Positions 52,803 through 64,000 are shown, numbered from the stretch's first letter. The stretch: 64,000 nt of DNA from Candidatus Nomurabacteria bacterium (GCA_023267375.1 JAHFNJ010000006.1:684-64683); one strand, 5' to 3'. Notes: generated by a model not told the origin, from the sequence alone. Program-made: numbers and translations.

Positions 52803-53483
52803 TTATATCAGAGCGATCAATCTTATAGGTGCTTCAGTACCATCCTTAACTTTTATTGGCAATACTAAACTTTTTACACCAACTGCCGGCAATTCTTTTG
52901 CATTCGCAATATTTTCTACCAGATACTTATCTGCACCCAATATTGCCCGATGAACAGGAAAACCATTCTTCCCAGTATCAGCAGATAAAGTATCAATTCC
53001 CAATCCTGCAATATTTCTTTTCAAGAGAAACTCTGCTGTTGAAAGATCTACGCTTGGAAAGTTGTGGCTGTTGATATATTTTTCTCTGTCATTCCAATTT
53101 GCATCCCAGCCGGTGTAGAAAATGACAAAAGTATTTGGCTGTATTTCTCCATGCTCTTTCTCAAATTTTTCAATTATTTCTGGCATGATTACGTAGTCTG
53201 CATTAGCTTCAGAGCTCACATCAATCACTACACAGTCAGTTACAAGTTGCTCCATTACAAGCTTATCTATAGTTCTACCACCTTCCACAACATGGGCCGG
53301 TGCATCCATGTGTGTTCCGATACCAGCCCCACACTTTATTTTTTGTGTACGAAATGTATCTGGTGGTGTACCATCTTTATAATCCCCATCAATAGATAAT
53401 TCGAAACCACATCCTCCATCCCAGGTCGGGATTTCAGATGATAAACTGTGGGTTAAATCTATAATTTTGAATTCTGTAGTCAT
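52803..53483 (-). CDS. cyclase-family protein (arylformamidase/kynurenine formamidase-like)
   Basis: GAGIGTHMDAPAHV is the HxGTHxDAPxH motif of the putative cyclase family. Confidence 0.6.
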   Translation of the reverse strand: MTTEFKIIDLTHSLSSEIPTWDGGCGFELSIDGDYKDGTPPDTFRTQKIKCGAGIGTHMDAPAHVVEGGRTIDKLVMEQLVTDCVVIDVSSEANADYVIMPEIIEKFEKEHGEIQPNTFVIFYTGWDANWNDREKYINSHNFPSVDLSTAEFLLKRNIAGLGIDTLSADTGKNGFPVHRAILGADKYLVENIANAKELPAVGVKSLVLPIKVKDGTEAPIRLIALI

Positions 53484-54740: not shown

Positions 54741-55466
54741 ATGCCAGCAAAGATTACTTTACTCGGAGCATTGCATGCAACCCCAGAAAAACTCATAGAT
54801 AGTAATCAGTATGGGATCTCAGATATGTTATTAGGTAACGAATCTGATACATTATTCGCGGAAAGATGGTTCAAAACATTTGATGACAATTTAACTTTGC
54901 TAATCTTAGAAAGTGCTTCATTCCATAAGAACATCATTACAATAGATAGTCCATTGTATGAAAGTGAGATCAAGCACATTAGCACATTGTTAGTTCAAAG
55001 TGATTTTGGTCCAGATATTCTGTGTGCGGATACACGTTTTAAAAATTTAAAGTCGGCAAAGAAAATCGTTAGTCTTAATTTTACGACTTTAGCGCACATG
55101 AATGGTGCATTTGGATTGGTAAGAATTCCTGAAACATTTGAGGATGCCCAGAAGTGTTACATCGACGGGAGATGGAAAAGGGATTATCGCCTGATGAGAG
55201 AAATCCCCAACAACATCAAAAGATCTGTTTTAGAGGAAGATGCTCTTAATACAGAAATGGAGAAGTACATGTTGGAACAAGCTGAGAAATATAAAAATGA
55301 TTATGACCAAATACTTATAATCACCGGTGCTTCTCATACTCTCGAAATGGCGACAACTTCTCAACTTCCCTATGAGGTGCTTGTTGAAACCAATAGCATG
55401 AATGAAATAGCTCAAAATTATGGAATGCTATTGGCAAGAAAAGCAAAAACAATTTTAAAGTGTTAA
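54741..55466 (+). CDS. hypothetical protein, possibly TraB/GumN-family
   Basis: ITLLGALHATPE near the N-terminus and LIITGASHTLEM near the C-terminus resemble the two TraB/GumN His motifs. Weak. Confidence 0.3.
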   Translation: MPAKITLLGALHATPEKLIDSNQYGISDMLLGNESDTLFAERWFKTFDDNLTLLILESASFHKNIITIDSPLYESEIKHISTLLVQSDFGPDILCADTRFKNLKSAKKIVSLNFTTLAHMNGAFGLVRIPETFEDAQKCYIDGRWKRDYRLMREIPNNIKRSVLEEDALNTEMEKYMLEQAEKYKNDYDQILIITGASHTLEMATTSQLPYEVLVETNSMNEIAQNYGMLLARKAKTILKC

Positions 55467-55609: not shown

Positions 55610-55683
55610 TGGGGAATCGTCTAATGGTAGGACAGCGGCCTTTGAAGCCGTTAATTGGGGTTCGAATCCCTGTTCCCCAGCCA
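55610..55683 (+). tRNA. tRNA-Gln (anticodon UUG), CCA encoded
   Basis: TGGGGAATCGTCTAATGGTAGGACAGCGGCCTTTGAAGCCGTTAATTGGGGTTCGAATCCCTGTTCCCCAGCCA. The acceptor stem is TGGGGAA/TTCCCCA, the anticodon loop is CTTTGAA (UUG) and the T-loop is GGTTCGAATCC. Confidence 0.8.
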
Positions 55684-55714
55684 ACTTGAGCTAGCTCAAA
55701 GATAGCTAGTTTCA

Positions 55715-55752
55715 AAACAAAAAACACCTTAATCAAAAAGGTGTTTTTTGTT
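55715..55752. terminator. intrinsic terminator after tRNA-Gln
   Basis: aaaaaACACCTTaatcaaaAAGGTGTtttttg. Confidence 0.6.
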
Positions 55753-55786
55753 TGAGTATTTATCGTAAATATAGTATAACTACACC

Positions 55787-56350
55787 ATGAACTTGGTTAA
55801 AGTGAATACTACTATTTTTGGCGAAGACTGCACAGTTGATCTAATGCAGTTTGATTCTTCTGATGGGAAAAAATGGAAAACTCTATTTGATCTATGGAAA
55901 GGTCTTAAAATGGGTATGCGTGATTACAAATCACGTGAGCCAAATTTTCCAGAAGGACTATCTGAAGTTGCTTTTTGTTTATGGTCTGGATCAACCAGAT
56001 TAATAAGTGCAAAAAAACTATCTAACACATCTTTTGATACATTTAATACTAAGACAAAAAGAGCTGAACAAATCAAAGCTTGTAGCGTTGAAAATGATCT
56101 TACTTCTTTTGGTCCAAAGTCTAGGTGGGATGATTTATATTTCTTGGACTTTTATGCTGATGGAAAAGTTGATGGAACTTTTAGTATTTATCTAATACCT
56201 AATAATTTTATTTACGATAATCAGGTTAATAAACTTCAGACACTCAAGCAACAACAAGAAGAAAAAAGGAGACCTAGGTTTTGTATCAAAAAAGATGTTA
56301 TTGAGAAATACAGTCTTAAGCCAGTCGCTACCAATGTAAAGGTTTGGTAA
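55787..56350 (+). CDS. hypothetical protein; candidate restriction endonuclease partner of the adjacent C5-MTase
   Basis: 187 aa, convergent and tail-to-tail with the MTase (stops 2 nt apart). It contains a possible PD-(D/E)XK-like stretch (WDDLYFLDFYADGKVDG) and has no RBS, so it may be leaderless. Confidence 0.3.
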   Translation: MNLVKVNTTIFGEDCTVDLMQFDSSDGKKWKTLFDLWKGLKMGMRDYKSREPNFPEGLSEVAFCLWSGSTRLISAKKLSNTSFDTFNTKTKRAEQIKACSVENDLTSFGPKSRWDDLYFLDFYADGKVDGTFSIYLIPNNFIYDNQVNKLQTLKQQQEEKRRPRFCIKKDVIEKYSLKPVATNVKVW

Positions 56351-56352
56351 TT

Positions 56353-57939
56353 TTACATCATCGCTTCCATCATTTTCTTTGCCACGGCTTCAATTACAGG
56401 AACACTCACTGAGTTACCAGCCTGTTTATACAGTGATGAATCTGCAATATTGGGCAGTACATAACTTTTAGGGAAACCTTGTATTCGAAAACACTCTAAT
56501 GGCGTAAGTTTTCTTATACCTTTTTTGTCTTTTATTATAGGTACATTGTGTCCACCCATTCCCATATTTGCAGTAAGTGTTGGACAAACCCCACTTTTAT
56601 TTTCACGGACATACTGTCTCCTCCATTGATATACTTTTCCTTCTTCTTTCACGTCTTTCTTTAGTTTCTCAAAAAGAGGTTTGCCGTTGTAGTAGTATTT
56701 TTCAGGAACATTTTTTTCTAATAAATCAGTAACTTTTTTTGTAAGTTTAACTGGTTCAGGAAAATTAAATTTATCCGAATAATCTTTATTTTTAAAACCC
56801 ACTATATAAATACGCTCACGATTTTGTGGAACATTACCATATTCCATAGTATTTAGTACTTTAGATTTTACATGGTAACCCAATTCTCTAAGAGTTTCTT
56901 CGATTACTTTAAAAGTATTGCCTCCGTCGTGGCTTTTCAGGTTTTTAACATTCTCAAGCATAAAACCCTCTGGATTTTTAGCTTTAATGATTTTTGCTAT
57001 ATCAAAAAATAGATTACCTCTATTTTTAGGATCGTCGAACCCTTTACGGTATCCTGCAATAGAAAACGCTTGGCAAGGGAATCCTCCTAATAAGAAATCA
57101 AATTCTGGCAAGTCATCAATCCCAATCTTTCTAATGTCCTCAACAATTAGTTTCGAGTTTCCAAAATTAAGATCGTAAGTAAGTTTACATGGAGCATCAA
57201 AATCATTTGCGAATACTGTTTTAAATCCAGCATTCTCAAATCCTGTTCTGATACCACCAACGCCTGCAAATAAATCTATGGTTTTAAAGCCATGCTTAGA
57301 CTTCTTTCTGGGTTTCGCTTCTTCTTCCAACTTAATATCTCGTATAACTTGCACAACGACACCTCTTATCTCTACATCTATTCTAAACAATGGTTTCATG
57401 TCTGGATTTCGCGGTTGCAATCTAATTTTCTTGTCTTCTTTATATAGTTTTTTAAGAGTTGCTTGATTATCATCAATAATTGCAACAACTGTTTGTCCGT
57501 TTTCTGCTACAGATTGTTTTTTAATAACAACAATGTCGCCATTAAAGATACCTTCATCTATCATACTGTCTCCAACAACACGCAGAGCATAGTGGTCTTT
57601 AGCAGTTTTGATAGCTGGATTTATTATAGATATGGTGTCTTGAGCATCTTCAATTGCTTCTATTGGTTGACCAGCGGCAATTTTACCAACAATAGGAATT
57701 TCAATGATTGATTTAATTTCTTTTTTTGGTGTCATACCACGATCGGTATCATCTGATTTTGAAAGGTAACCTTTCTCTCTTAGGGAAGCTATATGTTCGT
57801 GAACCGTTGAAACTGCCTTTAGATTTAAATTTTTACGAATCTCATCAATTGTAGGAGGAATGCCATTCTCAGCTGTATAAGTATTGATAAAATCGAATAT
57901 CTCTTTTTGTTTTTTTGTTAGTGTTTGCATATTACTCAT
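56353..57939 (-). CDS. LexA repressor (wHTH + S24 autopeptidase) fused to DNA (cytosine-5)-methyltransferase
   Basis: Residues 1-200 align motif-for-motif with E. coli LexA: LTKKQKEIFDFI, GIPPTIDEI, cleavage-site VGKIAAGQPIEA, catalytic Ser in RVVGDSMIDEGIFNGD and Lys in ATLKKL. Residues ~215-528 carry C5-MTase motifs I (DLFAGVGG), IV (GGFPCQAFS), VI (ENV) and X (QAGNSVSVPV). Confidence 0.8.
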   Translation of the reverse strand: MSNMQTLTKKQKEIFDFINTYTAENGIPPTIDEIRKNLNLKAVSTVHEHIASLREKGYLSKSDDTDRGMTPKKEIKSIIEIPIVGKIAAGQPIEAIEDAQDTISIINPAIKTAKDHYALRVVGDSMIDEGIFNGDIVVIKKQSVAENGQTVVAIIDDNQATLKKLYKEDKKIRLQPRNPDMKPLFRIDVEIRGVVVQVIRDIKLEEEAKPRKKSKHGFKTIDLFAGVGGIRTGFENAGFKTVFANDFDAPCKLTYDLNFGNSKLIVEDIRKIGIDDLPEFDFLLGGFPCQAFSIAGYRKGFDDPKNRGNLFFDIAKIIKAKNPEGFMLENVKNLKSHDGGNTFKVIEETLRELGYHVKSKVLNTMEYGNVPQNRERIYIVGFKNKDYSDKFNFPEPVKLTKKVTDLLEKNVPEKYYYNGKPLFEKLKKDVKEEGKVYQWRRQYVRENKSGVCPTLTANMGMGGHNVPIIKDKKGIRKLTPLECFRIQGFPKSYVLPNIADSSLYKQAGNSVSVPVIEAVAKKMMEAMM

Positions 57940-57947
57940 AATTTACA

Positions 57948-57975
57948 TTTTGCTACATTTACATTATATCCGAAA
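57948..57975 (-). promoter_or_regulatory. candidate operator: direct repeats ATGTAAAT-N8-ATGTAAAT (minus-strand sense) immediately upstream of the LexA-MTase start
   Basis: The plus strand reads atTTACATTTtgcTACATTTACATtat, 10-35 nt upstream of the start codon. Confidence 0.3.
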
Positions 57976-58010
57976 TAAAACCGAAAGTCTAAGCTTTAAT
58001 TAAAATACTG

Positions 58011-59357
58011 TTAATAACTCAAGCCAATAAGCTTATTTTTTAATGAAATATTACTTTTAAAACAAGTAAGCAATTCTCGCTTTTCTTCAACTGTACCGTC
58101 TTTCAGTATAAACTTGGCATAGTCTCTAATGTCTACGTCTTTTATTTGTATCTGCTGTTTAATATTTAGTACGGAATGATTAAATCTCTTAATCCGTTCA
58201 ACTTCACTTCTAATTTTTTCTTTCATGCCAATTTCACTAATGCTGATTTGATCTATAAGCTTTTCAAATTGTTGTATTAGCTCAATTTCATTTATGTATC
58301 CACATTTGCAAAATCTGTCTTTTGATTTTGCACAACCGTAGTACACATGTCGGTTTACACTACCGTCTTTAAGTTTCTTGAATTTTTCTTCTGCCGTTAT
58401 ACCTGATCCGCAAAGACCGCAATTCATCATCTTTATGAAAGCGAATTCTTTTGGTTCTTGAGTGCGAAGTGTCTGTGATTTTACCTGTGTTTGAACTTGA
58501 TCAAACAGTTCTTTGGAAATTATTGGTTCGTGTCTTCCTGTATAAAAGTTTCCACTTTTTCTAGGGTATTCAAAAACCCCATAATAAAATGGAGTTTCTA
58601 AAATCATGTATATATTACTCAAGGTCAATCCTTTGTTTCCATTACGCGTCTTTAGGTTTAATTCAAATTTAAGCCAATGATATATTTTTCTTCCACTCCA
58701 TCTTTCGTAAGCGACTTTTTCAAATATTTGTTTAACAATAGGTGCTCGTTCTGGATCTATAACTACCTGACATTTTTTATCGACATGCTTTTCGTTCAGG
58801 TATCCAAATATTGCAGGACCAGGTCGTAGTCCCATCTCACACCTTGTTCTTAATCCTCGTTTTACATTGATACTTTTATTGTCGTTTTCGAGCTTTGCCT
58901 GAGAACACAAGATCATTAGCAGGAATTTCTCGTTTGGAGAATTTTTGAAGTGTTGCCCATATGTTCTAATCTCAATAAGTTTGTTTTCATCCATTAAGTC
59001 GACAACTGATCCAAGATCTCCTGCGTTACGAGAAAGGCGATCGGGTGCCCAAGTAAGAATTCCTGTATATCTACCTCTGCGGATATCTTCAAGTAATTCT
59101 TTAAAGACTGGTCGCTGTCCTGATTCCTTTGCAGAATGTGATTCACGCCTAATCTCTACAACAGTTAGTCCGTCACGATCTGCAATCGTCAACATCTCTT
59201 TTACTTGTGACTCAATCGAGAGTGCTTGCTTTTCATCTGATTCGGTCGACTTCCTGGCATATAGGACGTAACGAACCTTTGCTTGTATGATCTCTGTCTT
59301 AACACCAAGGTTGCTTATGTATTGGGTTTCCATACATATATTGATGACGCAGATCAC
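58011..59357 (-). CDS. large serine recombinase (resolvase N-terminal domain + recombinase domain + zinc ribbon)
   Basis: N-terminal YARKSTESDEKQALSIESQ carries the catalytic Ser, the R..R motif is present, and the C-terminal Cys cluster is CGLCGS...YYGC. 448 aa. Confidence 0.8.
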   Translation of the reverse strand: MICVINICMETQYISNLGVKTEIIQAKVRYVLYARKSTESDEKQALSIESQVKEMLTIADRDGLTVVEIRRESHSAKESGQRPVFKELLEDIRRGRYTGILTWAPDRLSRNAGDLGSVVDLMDENKLIEIRTYGQHFKNSPNEKFLLMILCSQAKLENDNKSINVKRGLRTRCEMGLRPGPAIFGYLNEKHVDKKCQVVIDPERAPIVKQIFEKVAYERWSGRKIYHWLKFELNLKTRNGNKGLTLSNIYMILETPFYYGVFEYPRKSGNFYTGRHEPIISKELFDQVQTQVKSQTLRTQEPKEFAFIKMMNCGLCGSGITAEEKFKKLKDGSVNRHVYYGCAKSKDRFCKCGYINEIELIQQFEKLIDQISISEIGMKEKIRSEVERIKRFNHSVLNIKQQIQIKDVDIRDYAKFILKDGTVEEKRELLTCFKSNISLKNKLIGLSY

Positions 59358-59537
59358 TAGTTTTGCTAAGACTATGCAGACTAAGAAATACGTCGCATAC
59401 TCGCGATCAACGCCTTAGCAAAACCATATATCAGCGATACAATCAATCTAGAGTAATAGCAGTGAAAATGTTATTATTCTTTTACAACTGAATATCAGTC
59501 GACCTAACCCCTTTGGGAAACTAAAGGATATGGTCGC

Positions 59538-59690
59538 AAGTCCTATCAAGCATAAAGAACCCGTCATGGGGTGGCTTGATAGGCCGTATCGGGAAACTGG
59601 TACGAGAGGGTTCGCCCTCTACCCGTGGCGGGCTTTTTGTGTCTCAAGAAGCTCGATACGGAATTATTAAGTAATAAGTCCTATCAAGCG
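59538..59690 (+). ncRNA. structured intergenic element: three copies of a 12-mer (AGTCCTATCAAGC direct x2, inverted x1) flanking a GC-rich hairpin + T-run; candidate small RNA or operator/att region
   Basis: GTCCTATCAAGC occurs at 59539 and 59678, and GCTTGATAGG at 59573. The hairpin is AGAGGG-TTCG-CCCTCT, followed by CCCGTGGCGGGCTTTTT. No plus-strand CDS precedes the terminator-like structure. Confidence 0.3.
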
Positions 59691-59692
59691 TT

Positions 59693-60197
59693 TATGAATA
59701 CAACCAAAAAGTGCCCTGCGTGCCAGAAAGAGGTCGATGCGAAAGCAACCAAGTGTCCGTATTGTCAGTCAGACATGCGGAACTGGATTAGAAAACATCC
59801 AATAGGATCACTCATTCTAGTTCTGTTAGTAGTACCATTCTTTGTCAGTCAGATTATTGCAGAGCCGACACCTGAACAAACTCCCGCTCAACAAATTGCA
59901 GGAGTGAAGTACCAGAGCGCAAGAATCCTTGCAAAGTCATATATCGAGAAGGTGCCATTGAAGTCACCATCGACAGCAAAGTATAATCCTCCGACAACAA
60001 AGGTTGATCCAACAAATCCAAATCTCTTTGAAGTCTCATCGTACATCGACAGCCAGAACGGATTCGGAGCAATGATCAGAACATACTGGTCAATGAAGCT
60101 CGAATACATCGGAGGAGAAGACAATCAAGAGTCAGTCGAAACTGATGCAAACTGGAAAGTCGTAGAGTTCATCTTCGACGGAGAAAAGATTAAGTAG
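59693..60197 (+). CDS. zinc-ribbon membrane protein (hypothetical)
   Basis: MNTTKKCPACQKEVDAKATKCPYCQS is a CxxC...CxxC ribbon. It is followed by a TM helix and an extracytoplasmic domain. The start is placed at MNTTKK rather than the track's upstream Met. Confidence 0.45.
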
Positions 60198-60705
60198 TCT
60201 CAGGAGGTTTCTTCTTTCGTTTCTTTGGTTCTGGGATATCGTCCTTGATAACTCCCCAACGCTTGAAGAAGACCTCAGCATCCTTGCGAGCCTGCTCCAT
60301 ATCTTCTCTTTTGGAAGCAGACATCTCACCTAGTGCCTTGTCTTCAATTTCAAGTTTCTTTGAAATTTCAGCGAGGTAGCGGAATTGAGCAAAAGGATCT
60401 TCAGAATCAATTCTGTGGATGTACGGTCGTCTGAAATCATAGTGATTACGATCGAGCCAGTACATTGTGTACCTCACGTCTTTTGCTTTGATTCCTGCTA
60501 GCACGTTGCTTACTGCGATATCGTTCACGCGTCCTTTGCCGAGAGATAGTGCGTAGTTTGCTTGCGCCAAGAACGCAGGGTCTTCTTTCATCCAACGATA
60601 GAATGTGTTGCGAGAGATGCCGACCTTTTCACATGCGATCTGGAGCAGTGGGGTGTTCTCAAGCTCTGTCAGCAACTTATTTATGAGAGCTTTTGTCTTT
60701 TTCAT
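60190..60705 (-). CDS. phage terminase small subunit-like HTH DNA-binding protein
   Basis: The N-terminal LLQIACEKVGISRNTFYRWMKEDPAFLAQANYALS is the HTH typical of phage TerS/packaging proteins. The C-terminus is basic. Confidence 0.4.
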   Translation of the reverse strand: MKKTKALINKLLTELENTPLLQIACEKVGISRNTFYRWMKEDPAFLAQANYALSLGKGRVNDIAVSNVLAGIKAKDVRYTMYWLDRNHYDFRRPYIHRIDSEDPFAQFRYLAEISKKLEIEDKALGEMSASKREDMEQARKDAEVFFKRWGVIKDDIPEPKKRKKKPPETT

Positions 60706-61972
60706 ATACAGCTTTTTTACCAGTGAGCTTTTCCCAACGACGGATGATGAGGTCTACAAACACTGGCTCCAGTTCCATTCCGTACACTCTTCGACCAAGA
60801 GCTTCTCCTGCGATTAAAGTGCTACCTGACCCAAGAAAGCTATCAAGAATGATGTCGTTAATTTTCGTACATCGCTTGATTGCTTTCTCATGAAGACAAG
60901 GAGGCTTGGAAGTCGCATGCGTGTATTCTTTTGCAGAGAGCCTTTTCGCTGTCCATATCTCAAGGAAATCATCAACTTGTTGCATTAGTTCATTTCCAGT
61001 ACCGAACTCGTTGTTCAGTACTTCAGTAAGATCAGTCATTGATTTGGTTAGATATGGTTTGCCACGAATACCATAGACCGCAGGTTCGTATGCTTTGTTG
61101 CAGAAGACCTTAGGGACGCAGTTCTGACTGTTTTTTAGCCATAGGCACACACGCTTATTTTCAATACTAAGTGAGCGATACAGTTCTTGCACTACGCCGA
61201 TATAAATCTGATCACAGTAATAGAAGACGTGTGTATCCTCATGACACACAGCAAGTCCTGCTTCCATACTGTCTTTGAGAAACTTCTTGTATTCGTCGTA
61301 CGTTCTAGTATCGTTTACATTTCCTCCATAGTCCTGTGCGCCTCCAATTCCTGTGTTGTAGTCCACACCACCCTGTAGATTATATAAGGGGTCACTATAG
61401 ATGATTGATGCTCTCTCATCTCCAAACAATCTCTTTAGATTTTCTTTATCTGTCGAGTCGCCACACAAAATTTTGTGTGAGCCTAGGGTGATTAGGTCGC
61501 CGAGTTTTGTTTTTGGATTCTTGATCTTTTTCAGCTCCTTTTTTTCATCGAAGTTATCGTCGGTGGCTTCCTTGTCTTTGTCGAATATTTCAGAAAGTTC
61601 GATCGGATCGAACCCTGCGAACTCGAGGGTTTCGAAATCAAACTCCTTCAAAAGATCTATGTCCCATTCTCCAGATATTTTGTTTGAAGCGATTAAGTAC
61701 TCTTTTACTTCCTTTTCTGAGAGTTTTCGATTGGGGATGCGAACATCAATTAACTCTTCTCCGCGACCGAGCATTTTCAATGCTTTTATTCTTTGGTGGC
61801 CTGCCAGAATTTTTCCATCTAAATCCACGGCAGGTATTTCGACCAAATTATATTTCTTAATGCATTTCGTTAGGTCTGACATTTGTTTGTCAGGCATTTT
61901 TCTTGGGATGATCTCCTGGGGAATGAGATCATCCACTGTTTTTGGGACCGTAGTCCAGGCTAGTTTTTTCAT
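60677..61972 (-). CDS. ParB-like nuclease domain fused to beta-class DNA methyltransferase (N6A/N4C type)
   Basis: The N-terminal ParB/Srx fold motif is ..LAGHQRIKAL... The MTase motif IV SDPLYN precedes motif I DSFLGSGST, which is the beta-class order. Confidence 0.7.
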   Translation of the reverse strand: MKKLAWTTVPKTVDDLIPQEIIPRKMPDKQMSDLTKCIKKYNLVEIPAVDLDGKILAGHQRIKALKMLGRGEELIDVRIPNRKLSEKEVKEYLIASNKISGEWDIDLLKEFDFETLEFAGFDPIELSEIFDKDKEATDDNFDEKKELKKIKNPKTKLGDLITLGSHKILCGDSTDKENLKRLFGDERASIIYSDPLYNLQGGVDYNTGIGGAQDYGGNVNDTRTYDEYKKFLKDSMEAGLAVCHEDTHVFYYCDQIYIGVVQELYRSLSIENKRVCLWLKNSQNCVPKVFCNKAYEPAVYGIRGKPYLTKSMTDLTEVLNNEFGTGNELMQQVDDFLEIWTAKRLSAKEYTHATSKPPCLHEKAIKRCTKINDIILDSFLGSGSTLIAGEALGRRVYGMELEPVFVDLIIRRWEKLTGKKAVYEKDKSSHK

Positions 61973-62316
61973 AGGATTCTATAAAAATTATTTTGATAAT
62001 TGTCATAATTTTTATAGATACGCTCCGTTTACATATCTATACGATGCTTATGTAGGAGTGTCATAAACCTCCGTGCATAAATCGTAGCAATATAAGGCAA
62101 GCTATTTGTAGTTCCAAAAAAGCAGAAGTTGTAGAATGCTGTATTTGAAGGCTTTATTTGAAATATAAGAAAAAAGGTTCTTCGAGAATACCTGACAGTG
62201 TTCCGATCAATTACACATATAAAGTCATACAACACAAGCTCGAAAAATCAAGAGGAAAATGATATAATCGTTGAAGTTGTGTATGTAAACCTACAGCCAG
62301 CTAATATAAACAAGGT

Positions 62317-64000
62317 ATGAAAGTTTCACTTCTTAAGATAAACAATTTCAGATGTATTAAAACAGCGGAACTCTTTCTGGAGGAGCATACTTTATTAGTG
62401 GGTAAAAATAATGTTGGCAAATCTACTGTATGTGAAGCTCTCGATTTATTGCTAGGACCAGAGAGACTTAGTAGAACATCTCCAATCGATGAATATGATT
62501 TTTATAATGGGAAGTATTTAAGTGAAGCGGGTGAACCTATTCAAATTTTGATTGAAGCAGTACTCATTGATTTATCCGAAAAAGCAAAGAATACTTTTGG
62601 TGGACATCTAGAGTTTTGGCACAAGGGAGAAAAACGAGTATTGGAACTTGGTGAGATAGATACTGTTGATGCTGCAGATGTAGAGACATGCTTGAGATTG
62701 CAATTGAAAGGTCAATACGATCCAGAAGAAGATGAGTTTTGGGCAAAAACTTTTTACTCTCGAAGCCCTGGAGAAGAAGATGACGGTAATTTAACTGAAG
62801 TTTATCGTTCGGCAAAAAGAGAGATCGGTTTTCTTTATTTAAGAGCAATCAGAACTGGTAGTAGAGCGTTAAGTCTTGAGCGAGGTTCTTTGTTAGACAT
62901 TCTATTACGACTTGGACAAGTTCGTCCTCAGTTGTGGGAAAATACCCGAAATAAATTAATGGAGCTAGACCCTCCTCTAGATGATTCTATAGGTGCATTA
63001 CGCCCGATACTTGATAACATCGAAGCGAGAATTAAACAGTATGTTCCTCTTGATTCAGCAGATAAACCTACGCGCCTTTTCGTGTCACAGCTTACTCGGG
63101 AACATTTGCGAAAAACAGTTTCTTTTTTCATGTCGACAAGTCCAGATCAGGCTCCTGTACCTTTTCAAGAATTAGGTACGGGAACGCTGAATACTCTTGT
63201 ATTTGCGCTTTTGTCTGCAATCGCAGATCTTAAAAAGGAAAACGTCATATTCGCAATGGAAGAGCCCGAAATTGCTGTGTCGCCACATACCCAGAGAAGA
63301 ATTGTTGATTATCTACTCAAAAACACATCACAGTCGTTTATAACATCTCATTCACCATATGTAATTGAGAAGTTTTCTCCAGAACAAATAAAAATATTGA
63401 AGCGAGATAACAATGCAAATGTTACCAGTACATCCGTCACTTTGACTGCAGGATTAAAACCGAAGTTGTTTTATAGAAAATTAAGACCATCTATTGCTGA
63501 AGCAATTTTGGGGCAGGCTGTTTTGGTTGGAGAGGGGTTGGTAGAATTTCAAGTTCTTCGTGCTGCAGTTGATGTAATGGAAACTGAAAATCCTGATAAT
63601 TATCCATTTGATTTATCTGGTATTACTTTTTTCGATGCTGATGGTGATGGCAACTTATCTGAATACGGGGCGTTTTTTAAATCACTAGGTCTAAAGACTT
63701 TTGCTTTTTACGATAATGGAACTCGAACTCCTGCAGAGGTTGCTTCTATTGCTAGTAATTTTGACATAAACAAGCAGACCGCCTATTCCGATATTGAAAA
63801 GTTGTTAGCCGAGGAATTACCAATAGATATTCAGTGGAGTTATTTGCAGAGTTTAGTAGCTGATGGTTTGTTGCCTACCACTGTTCTTGTGTTACCAGCA
63901 GTTAAACCTTCGGATGCTGAAGTAAAGAATTTTACTAAGCAAGCACTTCTCTATAAGAAGGGTGATGGTAGATGTGCTGAGGTAATTAAGTTATGTACTA
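62317..64000 (+). CDS. OLD-family ATP-dependent endonuclease (ABC-type ATPase + TOPRIM), 3' end outside window
   Basis: AAGG RBS 2 nt upstream. MKVSLLKINNFRCIK...LLVGKNNVGKST is the Walker A and OLD N-terminus. VIFAMEEPEIAVSPH is the Walker B/D-loop and H-loop. TOPRIM Glu is in VLVGEGLVEFQVL and DxD in ITFFDADGDGNL. The frame is open to the window end. Confidence 0.7.
   Translation, partial: MKVSLLKINNFRCIKTAELFLEEHTLLVGKNNVGKSTVCEALDLLLGPERLSRTSPIDEYDFYNGKYLSEAGEPIQILIEAVLIDLSEKAKNTFGGHLEFWHKGEKRVLELGEIDTVDAADVETCLRLQLKGQYDPEEDEFWAKTFYSRSPGEEDDGNLTEVYRSAKREIGFLYLRAIRTGSRALSLERGSLLDILLRLGQVRPQLWENTRNKLMELDPPLDDSIGALRPILDNIEARIKQYVPLDSADKPTRLFVSQLTREHLRKTVSFFMSTSPDQAPVPFQELGTGTLNTLVFALLSAIADLKKENVIFAMEEPEIAVSPHTQRRIVDYLLKNTSQSFITSHSPYVIEKFSPEQIKILKRDNNANVTSTSVTLTAGLKPKLFYRKLRPSIAEAILGQAVLVGEGLVEFQVLRAAVDVMETENPDNYPFDLSGITFFDADGDGNLSEYGAFFKSLGLKTFAFYDNGTRTPAEVASIASNFDINKQTAYSDIEKLLAEELPIDIQWSYLQSLVADGLLPTTVLVLPAVKPSDAEVKNFTKQALLYKKGDGRCAEVIKLCT

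What the first reader, a model, noticed from the sequence alone, without database searches (positions are those of the whole stretch)
55684..64000. AT-rich accessory island inserted next to tRNA-Gln with recombinase, phage-like and DNA-modification/defence genes
Right after a standalone tRNA-Gln unit, which has its own promoter and terminator, the gene content switches from housekeeping to the LexA-MTase, a large serine recombinase, a TerS-like HTH protein, a ParB-MTase fusion and an OLD-family nuclease. By eye the composition becomes more A+T-rich. This is typical of an integrated element or defence island (prophage remnant or ICE-like). The far boundary and any tyrosine integrase or att repeat of the tRNA 3' end lie outside the window.
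Basis: partly seen in the sequence, partly recalled or inferred. Interest (0 to 1): 0.55.

Follow-up and report, generated by a model that had tools for sequence, protein, structure and literature searches.

The report
Serine-recombinase defence island at tRNA-Gln
The segment after tRNA-Gln is a real mobile island from a family widespread in tiny CPR bacteria, which carries anti-phage systems and also gives the orphan LOOT RNA a genomic home and a likely regulatory role.

Summary
The finding holds. tRNA-Gln(UUG) lies at 55610-55683. An accessory island begins immediately after its CCA end, at 55684. It carries a Bsp6I-like type II restriction-modification pair whose C5 methylase is fused to a complete LexA module, a large serine recombinase, a TerS-like protein, a ParB-methylase and Gabija GajA.

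The same core occurs in 80+ metagenome loci. It faces the 3' end of tRNA-Gln, Trp, Asn or Ser. A conserved terminal motif (ACTTGAGCTAGCTCAAAG) follows the tRNA only on the island side. Relatives carry a conserved ~95-nt distal end that mimics the tRNA 3' end.

Relatives also have TerL and a LexA-like repressor, but no capsid, tail, tyrosine-integrase or conjugation genes. The element is therefore phage-derived and satellite-like, with three cargo slots.

AT-richness is only partly right. It covers 54.2-58.8 kb, so it starts before the tRNA, and the core is not AT-rich. The distal end lies beyond the source contig.

Unexpectedly, the orphan Rfam RNA LOOT (59501-59620) is a standard island part. 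It sits 130-222 nt upstream of the recombinase in 40 of 73 loci. One hypervariable helix strand is copied over the start region of the downstream membrane-protein gene, which suggests regulation by RNA pairing.

The parts
55610..55683 (+). tRNA-Gln(UUG). Its 3'-terminal ...CAGCCA is the inferred attB core.
   Evidence: ARAGORN and Rfam. Island-facing tRNAs in about 26 related loci all end in GCCA.
55684..55705 (+). tRNA-proximal island terminus (P' arm): ACTTGAGCTAGCTCAAAGATAG, containing the 14-nt palindrome TTGAGCTAGCTCAA.
   Evidence: The same or a covarying motif directly follows island-facing tRNA-Gln/Trp/Asn/Ser. It is absent after 14 other tRNAs in the same loci and after 20 tRNAs in control loci.
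55715..55753 (.). Perfect 16-bp hairpin with flanking A/T runs (terminator-like on both strands), lying inside the island end.
   Evidence: A similar hairpin sits at the same place in islands L096 and L109.
55787..56350 (+). Cargo slot 1: Bsp6I-like type II restriction endonuclease.
   Evidence: Pfam RE_Bsp6I 44.2 bits (cut-off 25). PADLOC REase_II 90 bits.
56353..57939 (-). Cargo slot 1: C5 DNA methyltransferase fused to a complete LexA module. It has the HTH, the AAG cleavage site at residue 88, GDSM at 123 and TLKKL at 161.
   Evidence: Pfam hits and motif positions. The three-domain architecture is conserved in at least 120 protein clusters.
58011..59333 (-). Large serine recombinase (440 aa from the ATG; YARKST catalytic motif). 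It is the inferred island integrase.
   Evidence: Pfam Resolvase + Recombinase + Zn_ribbon_recom. phrog_95 integrase, 1e-61. At least 495 relatives in metagenomes.
59334..59500 (.). Divergent control region between the recombinase and LOOT. The edge of variable slot 2 lies at about 59396-59409.
   Evidence: LOOT-less relatives lose homology to the window at 59373-59409.
59501..59641 (+). LOOT RNA (Rfam RF03000, 59501-59620) plus a conserved 3' extension, ACCCGTGGCGGGCTTTTTGTG (59621-59641). The extension can pair with UAAAGAACCCG (59553-59563). Helix 3 strands lie at 59541-59552 and 59573-59584.
   Evidence: Rfam 81.6 bits against a 46.4-bit gathering score. Covariation: 93% of cells paired, 38 of 41 pairs with double changes. 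The extension pairing covaries.
59679..59689 (+). Exact copy (TCCTATCAAGC) of the 5' strand of LOOT helix 3, 4 nt before the payload start codon. It is the predicted pairing target of the helix-3 3' strand.
   Evidence: Copies of 8-12 nt occur in 25 of 42 loci, against 2% for mismatched locus pairs.
59694..60197 (+). Cargo slot 2 payload: a 167-aa protein with a zinc ribbon, one TM helix and an outer domain.
   Evidence: Zn-ribbon Pfam hits and phrog_13160. The same family follows LOOT in 22 of 41 loci.
60190..60705 (-). Core: TerS-like HTH protein.
   Evidence: phrog_4102 terminase small subunit, 8.8e-10. In relatives it is followed by TerL (phrog_38, 1e-76).
60677..61972 (-). Core: ParB-like domain fused to an N6/N4 DNA methyltransferase.
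   Evidence: Pfam N6_N4_Mtase. phrog_498 and phrog_620. It is syntenic with TerS in about 50 loci.
62319..64000 (+). Cargo slot 3: Gabija GajA (OLD-type ATPase + Toprim). The gene is cut by the window end; the full protein is 613 aa. gajB starts 3 nt after its stop codon.
   Evidence: PADLOC GajA 732 bits. The full gene and the gajB start are seen in L001. GajB (576 aa, 579 bits) is present in 95%-identical relatives.

Best explanation
Window 55684 to the end is the tRNA-proximal ~8.3 kb of an integrative island of about 10.5 kb. The island belongs to a family common in CPR/Patescibacteria.

Integration (inferred). The island's own large serine recombinase integrates it at the 3' end of a tRNA gene that ends in ...GCCA, here tRNA-Gln(UUG). 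The crossover lies inside ...CAGCCA. The island therefore begins with the conserved arm ACTTGAGCTAGCTCAAAG. Beyond this contig it should end with a conserved ~95-nt arm whose last bases mimic the tRNA 3' end.

Core (shown). The conserved core is the recombinase, the TerS-like protein and the ParB-methylase. Relatives add TerL and a LexA-like repressor. The core is phage-derived, and no structural genes are present. The element is therefore a defective-prophage or satellite-like island.

Cargo (shown). Three variable slots carry cargo:
- Slot 1: a Bsp6I-like R-M pair whose methylase carries a self-cleaving LexA module. This suggests SOS-responsive control, which is inferred.
- Slot 2: a LOOT RNA leader in front of a small membrane protein.
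- Slot 3: Gabija (GajA/GajB).

LOOT (inferred). LOOT probably controls its downstream gene. The 3' strand of its hypervariable helix can pair either with its normal partner or with an identical copy placed over the gene's translation start region.
For: Same core in different places:
- GajA relatives at 94-95% identity sit in the same order (recombinase, LOOT, small ORF, TerS-like, methylase, GajA, GajB).
- Their chromosomal flanks are unrelated: an ABC cassette with gmk/CTP synthase on a 346-kb contig, and an RHS cassette with RNase J on a 633-kb contig.

A large family:
- 80 of at least 495 recombinase relatives were inspected.
- The order methylase, TerS, variable region, recombinase, variable cargo, then a convergent tRNA recurs. 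The tRNA is Gln in about 19 loci, Trp in about 7, and Asn or Ser in others.

Island ends:
- The motif A[C/G]T[T/C]G[A/T]G..TAG directly follows ...GCCA of island-facing tRNAs in about 26 loci.
- It follows none of 14 other tRNAs in those loci and none of 20 control tRNAs.
- A conserved distal arm ending ...GCCAGC[A/C]A occurs in 13 loci. The tRNA-Trp-type island ends ...CCTGCAA.
- The reconstructed attP, TAGCTCAAG-GAC-GC-CA-GC-AAA-CTTGAGCTA, has 11/14 dyad symmetry around an asymmetric CA. This is read from the sequences.

Only one recombinase:
- Two complete islands (L086, L094) contain no other recombinase.

Phage origin:
- TerL phrog_38 at 1e-76, TerS phrog_4102 and integrase phrog_95.

Defence cargo:
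- PADLOC GajA 732 bits, GajB 579 bits and REase_II 90 bits.
- Relatives carry type I R-M and Cap15/nucleotidyltransferase genes.

LOOT:
- Rfam 81.6 bits.
- It lies 130-222 nt upstream of the recombinase in 40 of 73 loci.
- There are 0 hits in 1.23 Mb of control loci.
- Covariation, the helix-strand copy at the ORF start and the covarying 3' extension all support a regulatory role.
Against: - No island-free allele of this species was found, so presence/absence among close relatives is untested.
- The distal end of this very island is not available. Three assemblies all stop at the gajB start.
- The recombinase sits 2.3 kb from the proximal end rather than next to it. To my knowledge tRNA targets are unusual for large serine recombinases.
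- In L094 a perfect 40-nt tRNA fragment lies near the distal end, which is more typical of tyrosine integrases.
- Dyad symmetry of the inferred attP is weak in some variants and absent in the tRNA-Trp type.
- GCNGC sites are not depleted, so R-M specificity and activity are unsupported.
- No replication module was seen.
- LOOT regulation is inferred from sequence alone.
Confidence: 0.75

Rival explanations
1. This is a passive defence-gene hotspot. The tRNA-Gln flank is a recombination hotspot where unrelated small modules (the R-M pair, the recombinase module and Gabija) accumulated independently. The serine recombinase would be an invertase/resolvase or would serve only a sub-module, not the whole island.
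For: - Composition is mosaic: 0.33 GC for the R-M pair against 0.41-0.45 for the core.
- Cargo on both sides of the core is highly variable.
- The recombinase is internal to the island.
- The tRNA fragments in L094 point to several layers of events.
- The position of LOOT varies (L120, L131, L151).
Against: - Both island termini are conserved across islands with different cargo, different tRNA targets and different chromosomal flanks.
- The distal terminus matches the identity of the target tRNA (Gln against Trp).
- The whole recombinase-to-GajB block moves as a unit between three contexts.
Confidence: 0.12
2. This is a phage satellite. The island would be induced, through cleavage of a LexA-type repressor or by a helper phage. 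It would excise, and its own TerS (and TerL in relatives) would direct its packaging into helper capsids. It would spread defence cargo in the manner of PICI or P4-like satellites.
For: - TerS and TerL are present in canonical order, with no capsid or tail genes, in all islands inspected, including contigs in IMG/VR.
- Relatives encode a LexA-like S24 repressor.
- Cargo slots flank the integrase.
- The recombinase is strongly conserved (67-91% identity) across hundreds of loci, which suggests ongoing function.
Against: - No replication/primase module or helper-interference genes were recognised.
- No helper phage was identified.
- The window's own island lacks TerL and a free-standing repressor.
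- Packaging is untestable with these tools.
Confidence: 0.3
3. This is a dead prophage remnant. The element would be an immobile relic kept only for its defence genes.
For: - There are no structural genes, and TerL is missing in the window.
- The recombinase is frameshifted in L089.
Against: - The window's recombinase is intact and highly conserved.
- The family occupies several tRNA species and forms tandem junctions, with a distal arm joined to another island's proximal arm in L096, L097 and L105.
Confidence: 0.15

Closest known systems
tRNA-associated integrative genomic islands and phage satellites with defence hotspots (PICI, P4-like satellites); comparison from general knowledge
   Same: - Insertion at the 3' end of a tRNA gene.
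- Own integrase and conserved ends.
- A small phage-derived core with packaging genes but no virion genes.
- Variable anti-phage cargo next to the integrase.
   Different: - The integrase is a large serine recombinase, not a tyrosine recombinase.
- The att identity is only about 6 bp, plus conserved arms.
- The core is ParB-methylase + TerS (± TerL).
- The hosts are CPR bacteria.
- No replication or helper-interference module was recognised.
Large serine integrases of temperate phages (phiC31, Bxb1, TP901-1, A118 class)
   Same: - Resolvase + Recombinase + zinc-ribbon domain architecture.
- The inferred attP has inverted half-sites around an asymmetric dinucleotide.
   Different: - Only 25-28% identity to any integrase in 50,697 deposited phage records.
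- The inferred targets are tRNA 3' ends of four tRNA species, rather than sites in protein-coding genes.
- The gene is not adjacent to the att site.
Gabija (GajA/GajB)
   Same: GajA full-length match at 732 bits. GajB follows immediately.
   Different: Nothing unusual was seen. GajB of this strain is not in the window.
Type II R-M systems whose C5 methylase has an N-terminal regulatory HTH (SsoII/EcoRII type; from memory)
   Same: A DNA-binding domain is fused N-terminally to a C5 methylase, next to a divergent or convergent REase gene.
   Different: The fused module here is a whole LexA (HTH + S24 self-cleaving peptidase with its catalytic motifs). This implies cleavage-dependent control. The fusion is common in CPR MAGs. 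No paper search was run for the fusion itself.
Phage and satellite immunity RNAs (P1/P7 c4 RNA, P4 CI RNA; from memory)
   Same: - A structured RNA is encoded just upstream of its target on the same strand.
- A short segment is complementary to the target's translation start region.
- Matched hypervariation of RNA and target is consistent with element-specific immunity.
   Different: - LOOT is larger (about 120-140 nt, six helices) and has a different fold.
- Its complementary segment is itself held in a helix.
- The target is usually a small membrane protein.
- None of this has been tested experimentally.

Membership tests
tRNA-integrated genomic island | Lies directly at the 3' end of a tRNA gene | tested here: met
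   The island motif starts at 55684, the base after the tRNA-Gln CCA.
tRNA-integrated genomic island | Encodes its own site-specific recombinase | tested here: met
   Large serine recombinase at 58011-59333.
tRNA-integrated genomic island | Defined att ends on both sides | tested here: inconclusive
   The proximal end is present in the window. The distal end was seen only in relatives (13 loci). This strain's contigs stop at gajB.
tRNA-integrated genomic island | Same element in different chromosomal contexts, or absent from close relatives | tested here: met
   The core occurs in three unrelated contexts. An empty site in the same species could not be found.
tRNA-integrated genomic island | Composition deviating from the backbone | tested here: inconclusive
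   Only 55.7-58.8 kb deviates, and the deviation begins before the tRNA.
Large serine recombinase | Resolvase catalytic domain + Recombinase domain + zinc ribbon | tested here: met
   Pfam scores of 76, 61 and 25.5 bits, all above their cut-offs. The YARKST motif is present in the translation.
Large serine recombinase | Catalyses attP x attB integration at the inferred sites | not testable with these tools
   Inferred from junction comparisons only.
Gabija | GajA: ABC-type ATPase + Toprim (OLD family) | tested here: met
   PADLOC PDLC00086, 731.8 bits over residues 1-585.
Gabija | GajB: UvrD-like helicase encoded immediately downstream | tested here: inconclusive
   Only 22 codons are seen for this strain (MAIVIGEEHEIILNATDHLLVT). 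Relatives with 95%-identical GajA carry the full 576-aa GajB at 579 bits.
Type II restriction-modification (Bsp6I-like) | REase and cognate methylase genes adjacent | tested here: met
   RE_Bsp6I at 55787-56350 abuts the C5 methylase at 56353-57939. The same pair occurs in L160.
Type II restriction-modification (Bsp6I-like) | GCNGC specificity or activity | tested here: inconclusive
   GCNGC occurs 141 times against 130±11 expected, so there is no avoidance. Specificity itself was not tested.
LOOT RNA (Rfam RF03000) | Scores above the family gathering threshold, with its structure | tested here: met
   81.6 bits against 46.4, over the full model 1-121. Across 46 homologues, 93% of pair cells are paired.
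Prophage | Virion structural and lysis genes | tested here: not met
   None in the window island or in the complete relatives L086 and L094.
Integrative conjugative element | Relaxase, coupling protein and type IV secretion genes | tested here: not met
   No such Pfam families in the window island, L086 or L094.
Phage satellite (PICI/P4-like) | Integrase plus packaging-redirection genes, without virion genes | tested here: met
   Recombinase, TerS-like and (in relatives) TerL, with no structural genes.
Phage satellite (PICI/P4-like) | Replication module and helper-dependent induction and packaging | not testable with these tools
   No primase/rep gene was recognised and no helper is known.

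The most novel reading that the evidence does not exclude
Two linked readings remain open.

- LOOT, an orphan metagenomic RNA family, would be the specificity-bearing regulatory RNA of a widespread family of CPR islands. Its hypervariable helix 3, which has almost no G-U pairs, and the matched copy at the payload gene's start site would form an element-specific RNA switch or immunity system. This would be analogous to c4 of P1/P7 or CI of P4, and would control a superinfection-exclusion-like membrane protein.
- The islands themselves would be moved by a large serine recombinase that targets the ...GCCA 3' ends of several tRNA species.
Probability: 0.4. Interest if true: 0.75.

Novelty: new variant of a known kind. 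Interest (0 to 1): 0.6.

Why it matters
- **Island family.** tRNA-adjacent defence islands are ordinary. This one defines a coherent, abundant island family in CPR/Patescibacteria, whose mobile elements are poorly described.
- **Integrase.** The island uses a large serine recombinase that appears to target tRNA 3' ends. That is of interest for integrase biology and for tool development.
- **LOOT.** LOOT has had no known organism, context or function. This work gives it a precise genomic address and a testable mechanism.
- **LexA fusion.** The LexA-methylase fusion suggests that restriction-modification may be coupled to the SOS response.

Tried and rejected
- **tRNA repeat in the window.** I searched for a repeat of the 27-nt tRNA 3' end, allowing up to 3 mismatches. 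None was found.
- **Synteny with relatives.** The nearest GTDB representatives have a cyclase at most 77% identical. No synteny remains, so the comparison is uninformative.
- **Empty-site search.** Exact-protein look-ups of left-flank genes returned only contigs of the same strain. The 241-aa gene is nearly an orphan.
- **Distal end of this strain.** The 64,951-bp source contig, L001 and the 40-kb L181 all stop at the gajB start.
- **R-M activity.** I tested GCNGC avoidance as a sign of R-M activity and saw none.
- **LOOT as a DNA guide for the recombinase (bridge-RNA-like).** Rejected for helix 3. The window and L094 share the same att core but have different helix sequences, and no loop is complementary to the core.
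- **The break in homology at about 59.4 kb as an att site.** Rejected. LOOT-less loci keep methylase and TerS upstream, so this is only the edge of a variable slot.
- **The hairpin after the tRNA as a generic tRNA trailer.** Rejected by the controls.
- **Literature on LOOT.** Only Rfam and method papers turned up, with nothing on function or context.
- **Literature on serine-recombinase islands at tRNA genes or in Patescibacteria.** Nothing matching was found.

Full report
**Observation**

ARAGORN and Rfam place tRNA-Gln(UUG) at 55610-55683 on the + strand. A perfect 16-bp hairpin with a T-run follows at 55715-55753. No sigma-70-like promoter was detected for the tRNA.

- A LexA_DNA_bind + Peptidase_S24 + C5 DNA_methylase fusion (56353-57939, -).
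- A large serine recombinase (58011-59333, -; Resolvase + Recombinase + Zn_ribbon_recom).
- A TerS-like protein (60190-60705, -; phrog_4102, 8.8e-10).
- A ParB-like/N6_N4 methylase fusion (60677-61972, -).
- An OLD-family ATPase/Toprim from 62319 to the window end.

- The ORF at 55787-56350 is a Bsp6I-like restriction endonuclease (Pfam 44 bits; PADLOC REase_II 90 bits). It forms a type II R-M pair with the fused methylase.
- The 360-nt gap between the recombinase and the next ORF contains a full-length LOOT RNA (Rfam RF03000; 81.6 bits against a gathering score of 46.4).

**Composition**

- The backbone (1-53500) has 0.416 GC. Windows of 2.26 kb have sd 0.017 and a minimum of 0.382.
- The R-M segment has 0.334 and the recombinase gene 0.358.
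- The LOOT-to-methylase core has 0.41-0.45 and GajA has 0.38.
- The low-GC tract begins near 54.2 kb, before the tRNA. It covers a 241-aa ORF with only two distant homologues in 5.8 billion proteins.

The AT-rich description is therefore only partly right, and composition does not mark the boundary.

**Host**

- The best GTDB-representative matches to a flanking cyclase are Minisyncoccia/Paceibacterota MAGs at no more than 77% identity. They share no synteny with the window.
- The window also contains Mur ligase and PBP genes.
- The source is a CPR/Patescibacteria chromosome.
- Its contig is 64,951 bp, so less than 1 kb lies beyond the window.

**The element moves as a unit**

The full GajA (613 aa) was recovered from a metagenome contig identical to the window. 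It scores 732 bits on the PADLOC GajA model. The next gene starts 3 nt after its stop codon.

In relatives with 94-95% identical GajA, that next gene is a 576-aa UvrD helicase scoring 579 bits as GajB. Those relatives carry the same order: recombinase, LOOT, small ORF, TerS-like, methylase, GajA, GajB. Their flanks are unrelated:
- L086 lies on a 346-kb contig. An ABC cassette and tRNA-Gln(CUG) are on one side. DUF1801, gmk and CTP synthase are on the other.
- L089 lies on a 633-kb contig, between an RHS toxin cassette and HhH-GPD, MFS and RNase J genes.

DNA homology to the window starts at the recombinase stop codon and ends just after gajB.

**A large family**

A metagenome scan with the recombinase returned at least 495 relatives. 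The best 80 are 67-91% identical. Mapping the window's proteins, tRNAs and LOOT on these loci gives a recurrent architecture:
- The order is ParB-methylase, TerS-like, a variable region of 0.2-3 kb, the recombinase, then 1.2-9 kb of variable cargo.
- A tRNA gene follows, convergent with the recombinase.
- The tRNA is Gln(CUG or UUG) in about 19 loci and Trp in about 7. Asn and Ser occur once each.

**Island ends**

The proximal end:
- In about 26 distinct loci the island-facing tRNA ends in ...GCCA. It is followed at once by A[C/G]T[T/C]G[A/T]G[C/A](G)TAG.
- In the window this is ACTTGAGCTAGCTCAAAGATAG at 55684-55705.
- Variants keep the palindrome through changes on both sides, for example CTTGAGCT/AGCTCAAG against CTCGTGCT/AGCACGAG.
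- The motif is absent after 14 other tRNAs in the same loci, after the window's tRNA-Glu, and after 20 tRNAs in unrelated loci. The latter include four CPR tRNA-Gln genes.

The distal end:
- Thirteen loci carry a conserved ~95-nt element ending ...GGTTCTAGCTCnAG....GCCAGC[A/C]A. After it the sequences diverge.
- In L086 it lies 270 nt after gajB, behind a conserved 56-aa ORF.
- In a tRNA-Trp-type island it ends ...CCTGCAA, which matches the tRNA-Trp 3' end.

What follows from this:
- I infer that the crossover lies within ...C(A/T)GCCA.
- Joining the two arms gives TAGCTCAAG-GAC-GC-CA-GC-AAA-CTTGAGCTA. This is an 11/14 inverted repeat around an asymmetric CA, the layout expected of a serine-recombinase site. 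The inference rests on my reading of the junction sequences. The symmetry is weaker in other variants.
- Junctions that join a distal arm to another island's proximal arm (L096, L097, L105) indicate tandem accretion.
- By homology with L086 (11.05 kb), the window's island should be about 10.5 kb long and should end about 2.2 kb past the window.

**Nature of the element**

- In L094, L174 and L178 a 478-495-aa gene follows TerS. It is a terminase large subunit (phrog_38, 1e-76 and 8e-75 for L094 and L174; L178 found by 81% tblastn identity to L094 TerL).
- L094 carries a free-standing LexA-like S24 repressor. L178 has an ORF of the same size and position that was not scored.
- L094 is a 17.6-kb island. 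Besides those genes it holds Cap15 and a nucleotidyltransferase (CBASS-like), a T5orf172 protein and a type I R-M system.
- No island, including those filed in IMG/VR, shows capsid, tail, lysis, conjugation or tyrosine-integrase genes.
- The recombinase is at most 28% identical to any integrase in 50,697 deposited phage records.

The element is therefore a phage-derived, satellite-like or defective island with three cargo slots. In the window these hold the R-M pair, LOOT with a membrane protein, and Gabija. TerL has been lost here.

**The LexA-methylase fusion**

- It retains the LexA cleavage site (AAG at residue 88), the nucleophile motif (GDSM at 123) and the lysine region (TLKKL at 161). 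These are interpreted from established LexA biochemistry.
- The fusion is not peculiar to this window. At least 120 protein clusters at 77-100% identity share the three domains. All come from CPR MAGs.
- SOS-triggered separation of the DNA-binding domain from the methylase is a reasonable reading, but it is untested.
- GCNGC sites are not depleted in the window (141 against 130±11).

**LOOT**

Association with the island:
- A covariance model built from the hits finds LOOT in 45 of the 80 recombinase loci.
- In 40 of the 73 loci with enough upstream sequence it lies 130-222 nt upstream of the recombinase, transcribed divergently. The distance in the window is 168 nt.
- The model finds none in 1.23 Mb of unrelated loci.

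Structure:
- Covariation is strong: 93% of cells are paired, 38 of 41 pairs show changes on both sides, and slid controls give 31-42%.

New observations:
- *Helix-3 copy.* The 5' strand of the long helix 3 is repeated exactly (8-12 nt) about 40-70 nt downstream of LOOT. The copy ends a few bases before the start codon of the next ORF. This holds in 25 of 42 distinct loci, against 2% when LOOTs and downstream regions are mismatched. In the window the copy is TCCTATCAAGC at 59679-59689 and the ATG is at 59694.
- *Helix-3 composition.* Helix 3 is hypervariable yet nearly free of G-U pairs.
- *3' extension.* A conserved extension just beyond the Rfam model (59621-59641...CGGGCUUUUUG) can pair with the conserved internal loop and the 5' strand of helix 4 (UAAAGAACCCG). 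The pairing shows compensatory changes: 9.45 pairs against 8.24±0.11 for shuffled partners. It competes with helix 4 and with a small terminator-like hairpin.
- *Downstream gene.* In 22 of 41 loci the next gene belongs to one family of small single-pass membrane proteins. Most of the others also begin with a TM helix.

I infer that LOOT is a leader or adjacent antisense-type RNA that gates translation of this payload. The sequence-specific, element-matched pairing resembles the c4 and CI immunity RNAs of P1/P7 and P4 (comparison from memory).

A DNA-guide role for the recombinase was considered. It was rejected for helix 3, because islands with the same att core have different helix sequences.

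The searchable literature describes LOOT only as a metagenomic RNA candidate.

**Limits**

- No island-free allele of this species was found.
- The distal end of this island is not available.
- The assignment of the serine recombinase as the integrase acting at tRNA ends is inferred. The support is that it is the sole recombinase, its orientation is constant, and the junction structure fits.
- A perfect 40-nt tRNA-Gln fragment lies 42 nt beyond the distal arm in L094. It remains unexplained and may reflect older events.

**Verdict**

The finding is real and its interpretation is essentially correct. As a tRNA-adjacent defence island it is an ordinary kind of thing. The serine-recombinase/tRNA-end mechanism, the CPR-wide family and the placement of LOOT make it a new variant worth following up.

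Noticed in passing
window 59501-59641 and 59679-59689: LOOT RNA (an Rfam orphan family) sits between the recombinase and a membrane-protein gene. It has a conserved 3' extension that is not in the Rfam model. A copy of its helix-3 5' strand lies at the downstream start codon.
   Followed up: yes
window 59541-59552 / 59573-59584 (LOOT helix 3): The helix is hypervariable between loci but has almost no G-U pairs (about 1% of cells, against about 10% in the other helices). This is unexplained. It may reflect selection for exact, element-specific pairing.
   Followed up: partly
window 54741-55466: A low-GC (0.358) 241-aa ORF lies just upstream of the tRNA. It has only two distant homologues in 5.8 billion proteins. 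The region before the tRNA therefore also looks accessory.
   Followed up: partly
window 52803-53483; L006-L013: Homologues of this cyclase gene lie directly downstream of a tRNA gene (Gln, Arg, Thr or Val) in 7 of 10 CPR relatives. This suggests the cyclase is itself tRNA-associated cargo elsewhere.
   Followed up: no
L094 1536-1575 and 1297-1315: A perfect 40-nt copy and a 19-nt copy of the tRNA-Gln 3' part lie just outside the island's distal arm. They may be relics of earlier integrations.
   Followed up: partly
L001, L004, L181 and the source contig end: Short-read assemblies of this strain break at LOOT and at the start of gajB. This suggests that these segments are repeated among co-existing islands or strains.
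   Followed up: partly
L131 8683-8805, L151 17825-17941, L120 11411-11528: In tRNA-Trp-type islands LOOT lies 112 nt after the tRNA and 6.5 kb from the recombinase. In L120, LOOT and its payload follow the recombinase stop codon. LOOT placement within the island is therefore not fixed.
   Followed up: partly
L089 5312-6629: The recombinase is split into 324-aa and 120-aa ORFs (a frameshift) in an island that also lacks the tRNA-proximal end. This copy is probably immobilised.
   Followed up: no
window 11816-32502: Four very large ORFs (3683, 965, 803 and 1403 aa) lie on the minus strand. They were not analysed.
   Followed up: no
L086 2996-5567: Cargo slot 1 of the closest relative holds an ABC ATPase with PADLOC mad3/mad8 similarity and an ABC-2 membrane protein, in place of the R-M pair.
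   Followed up: no
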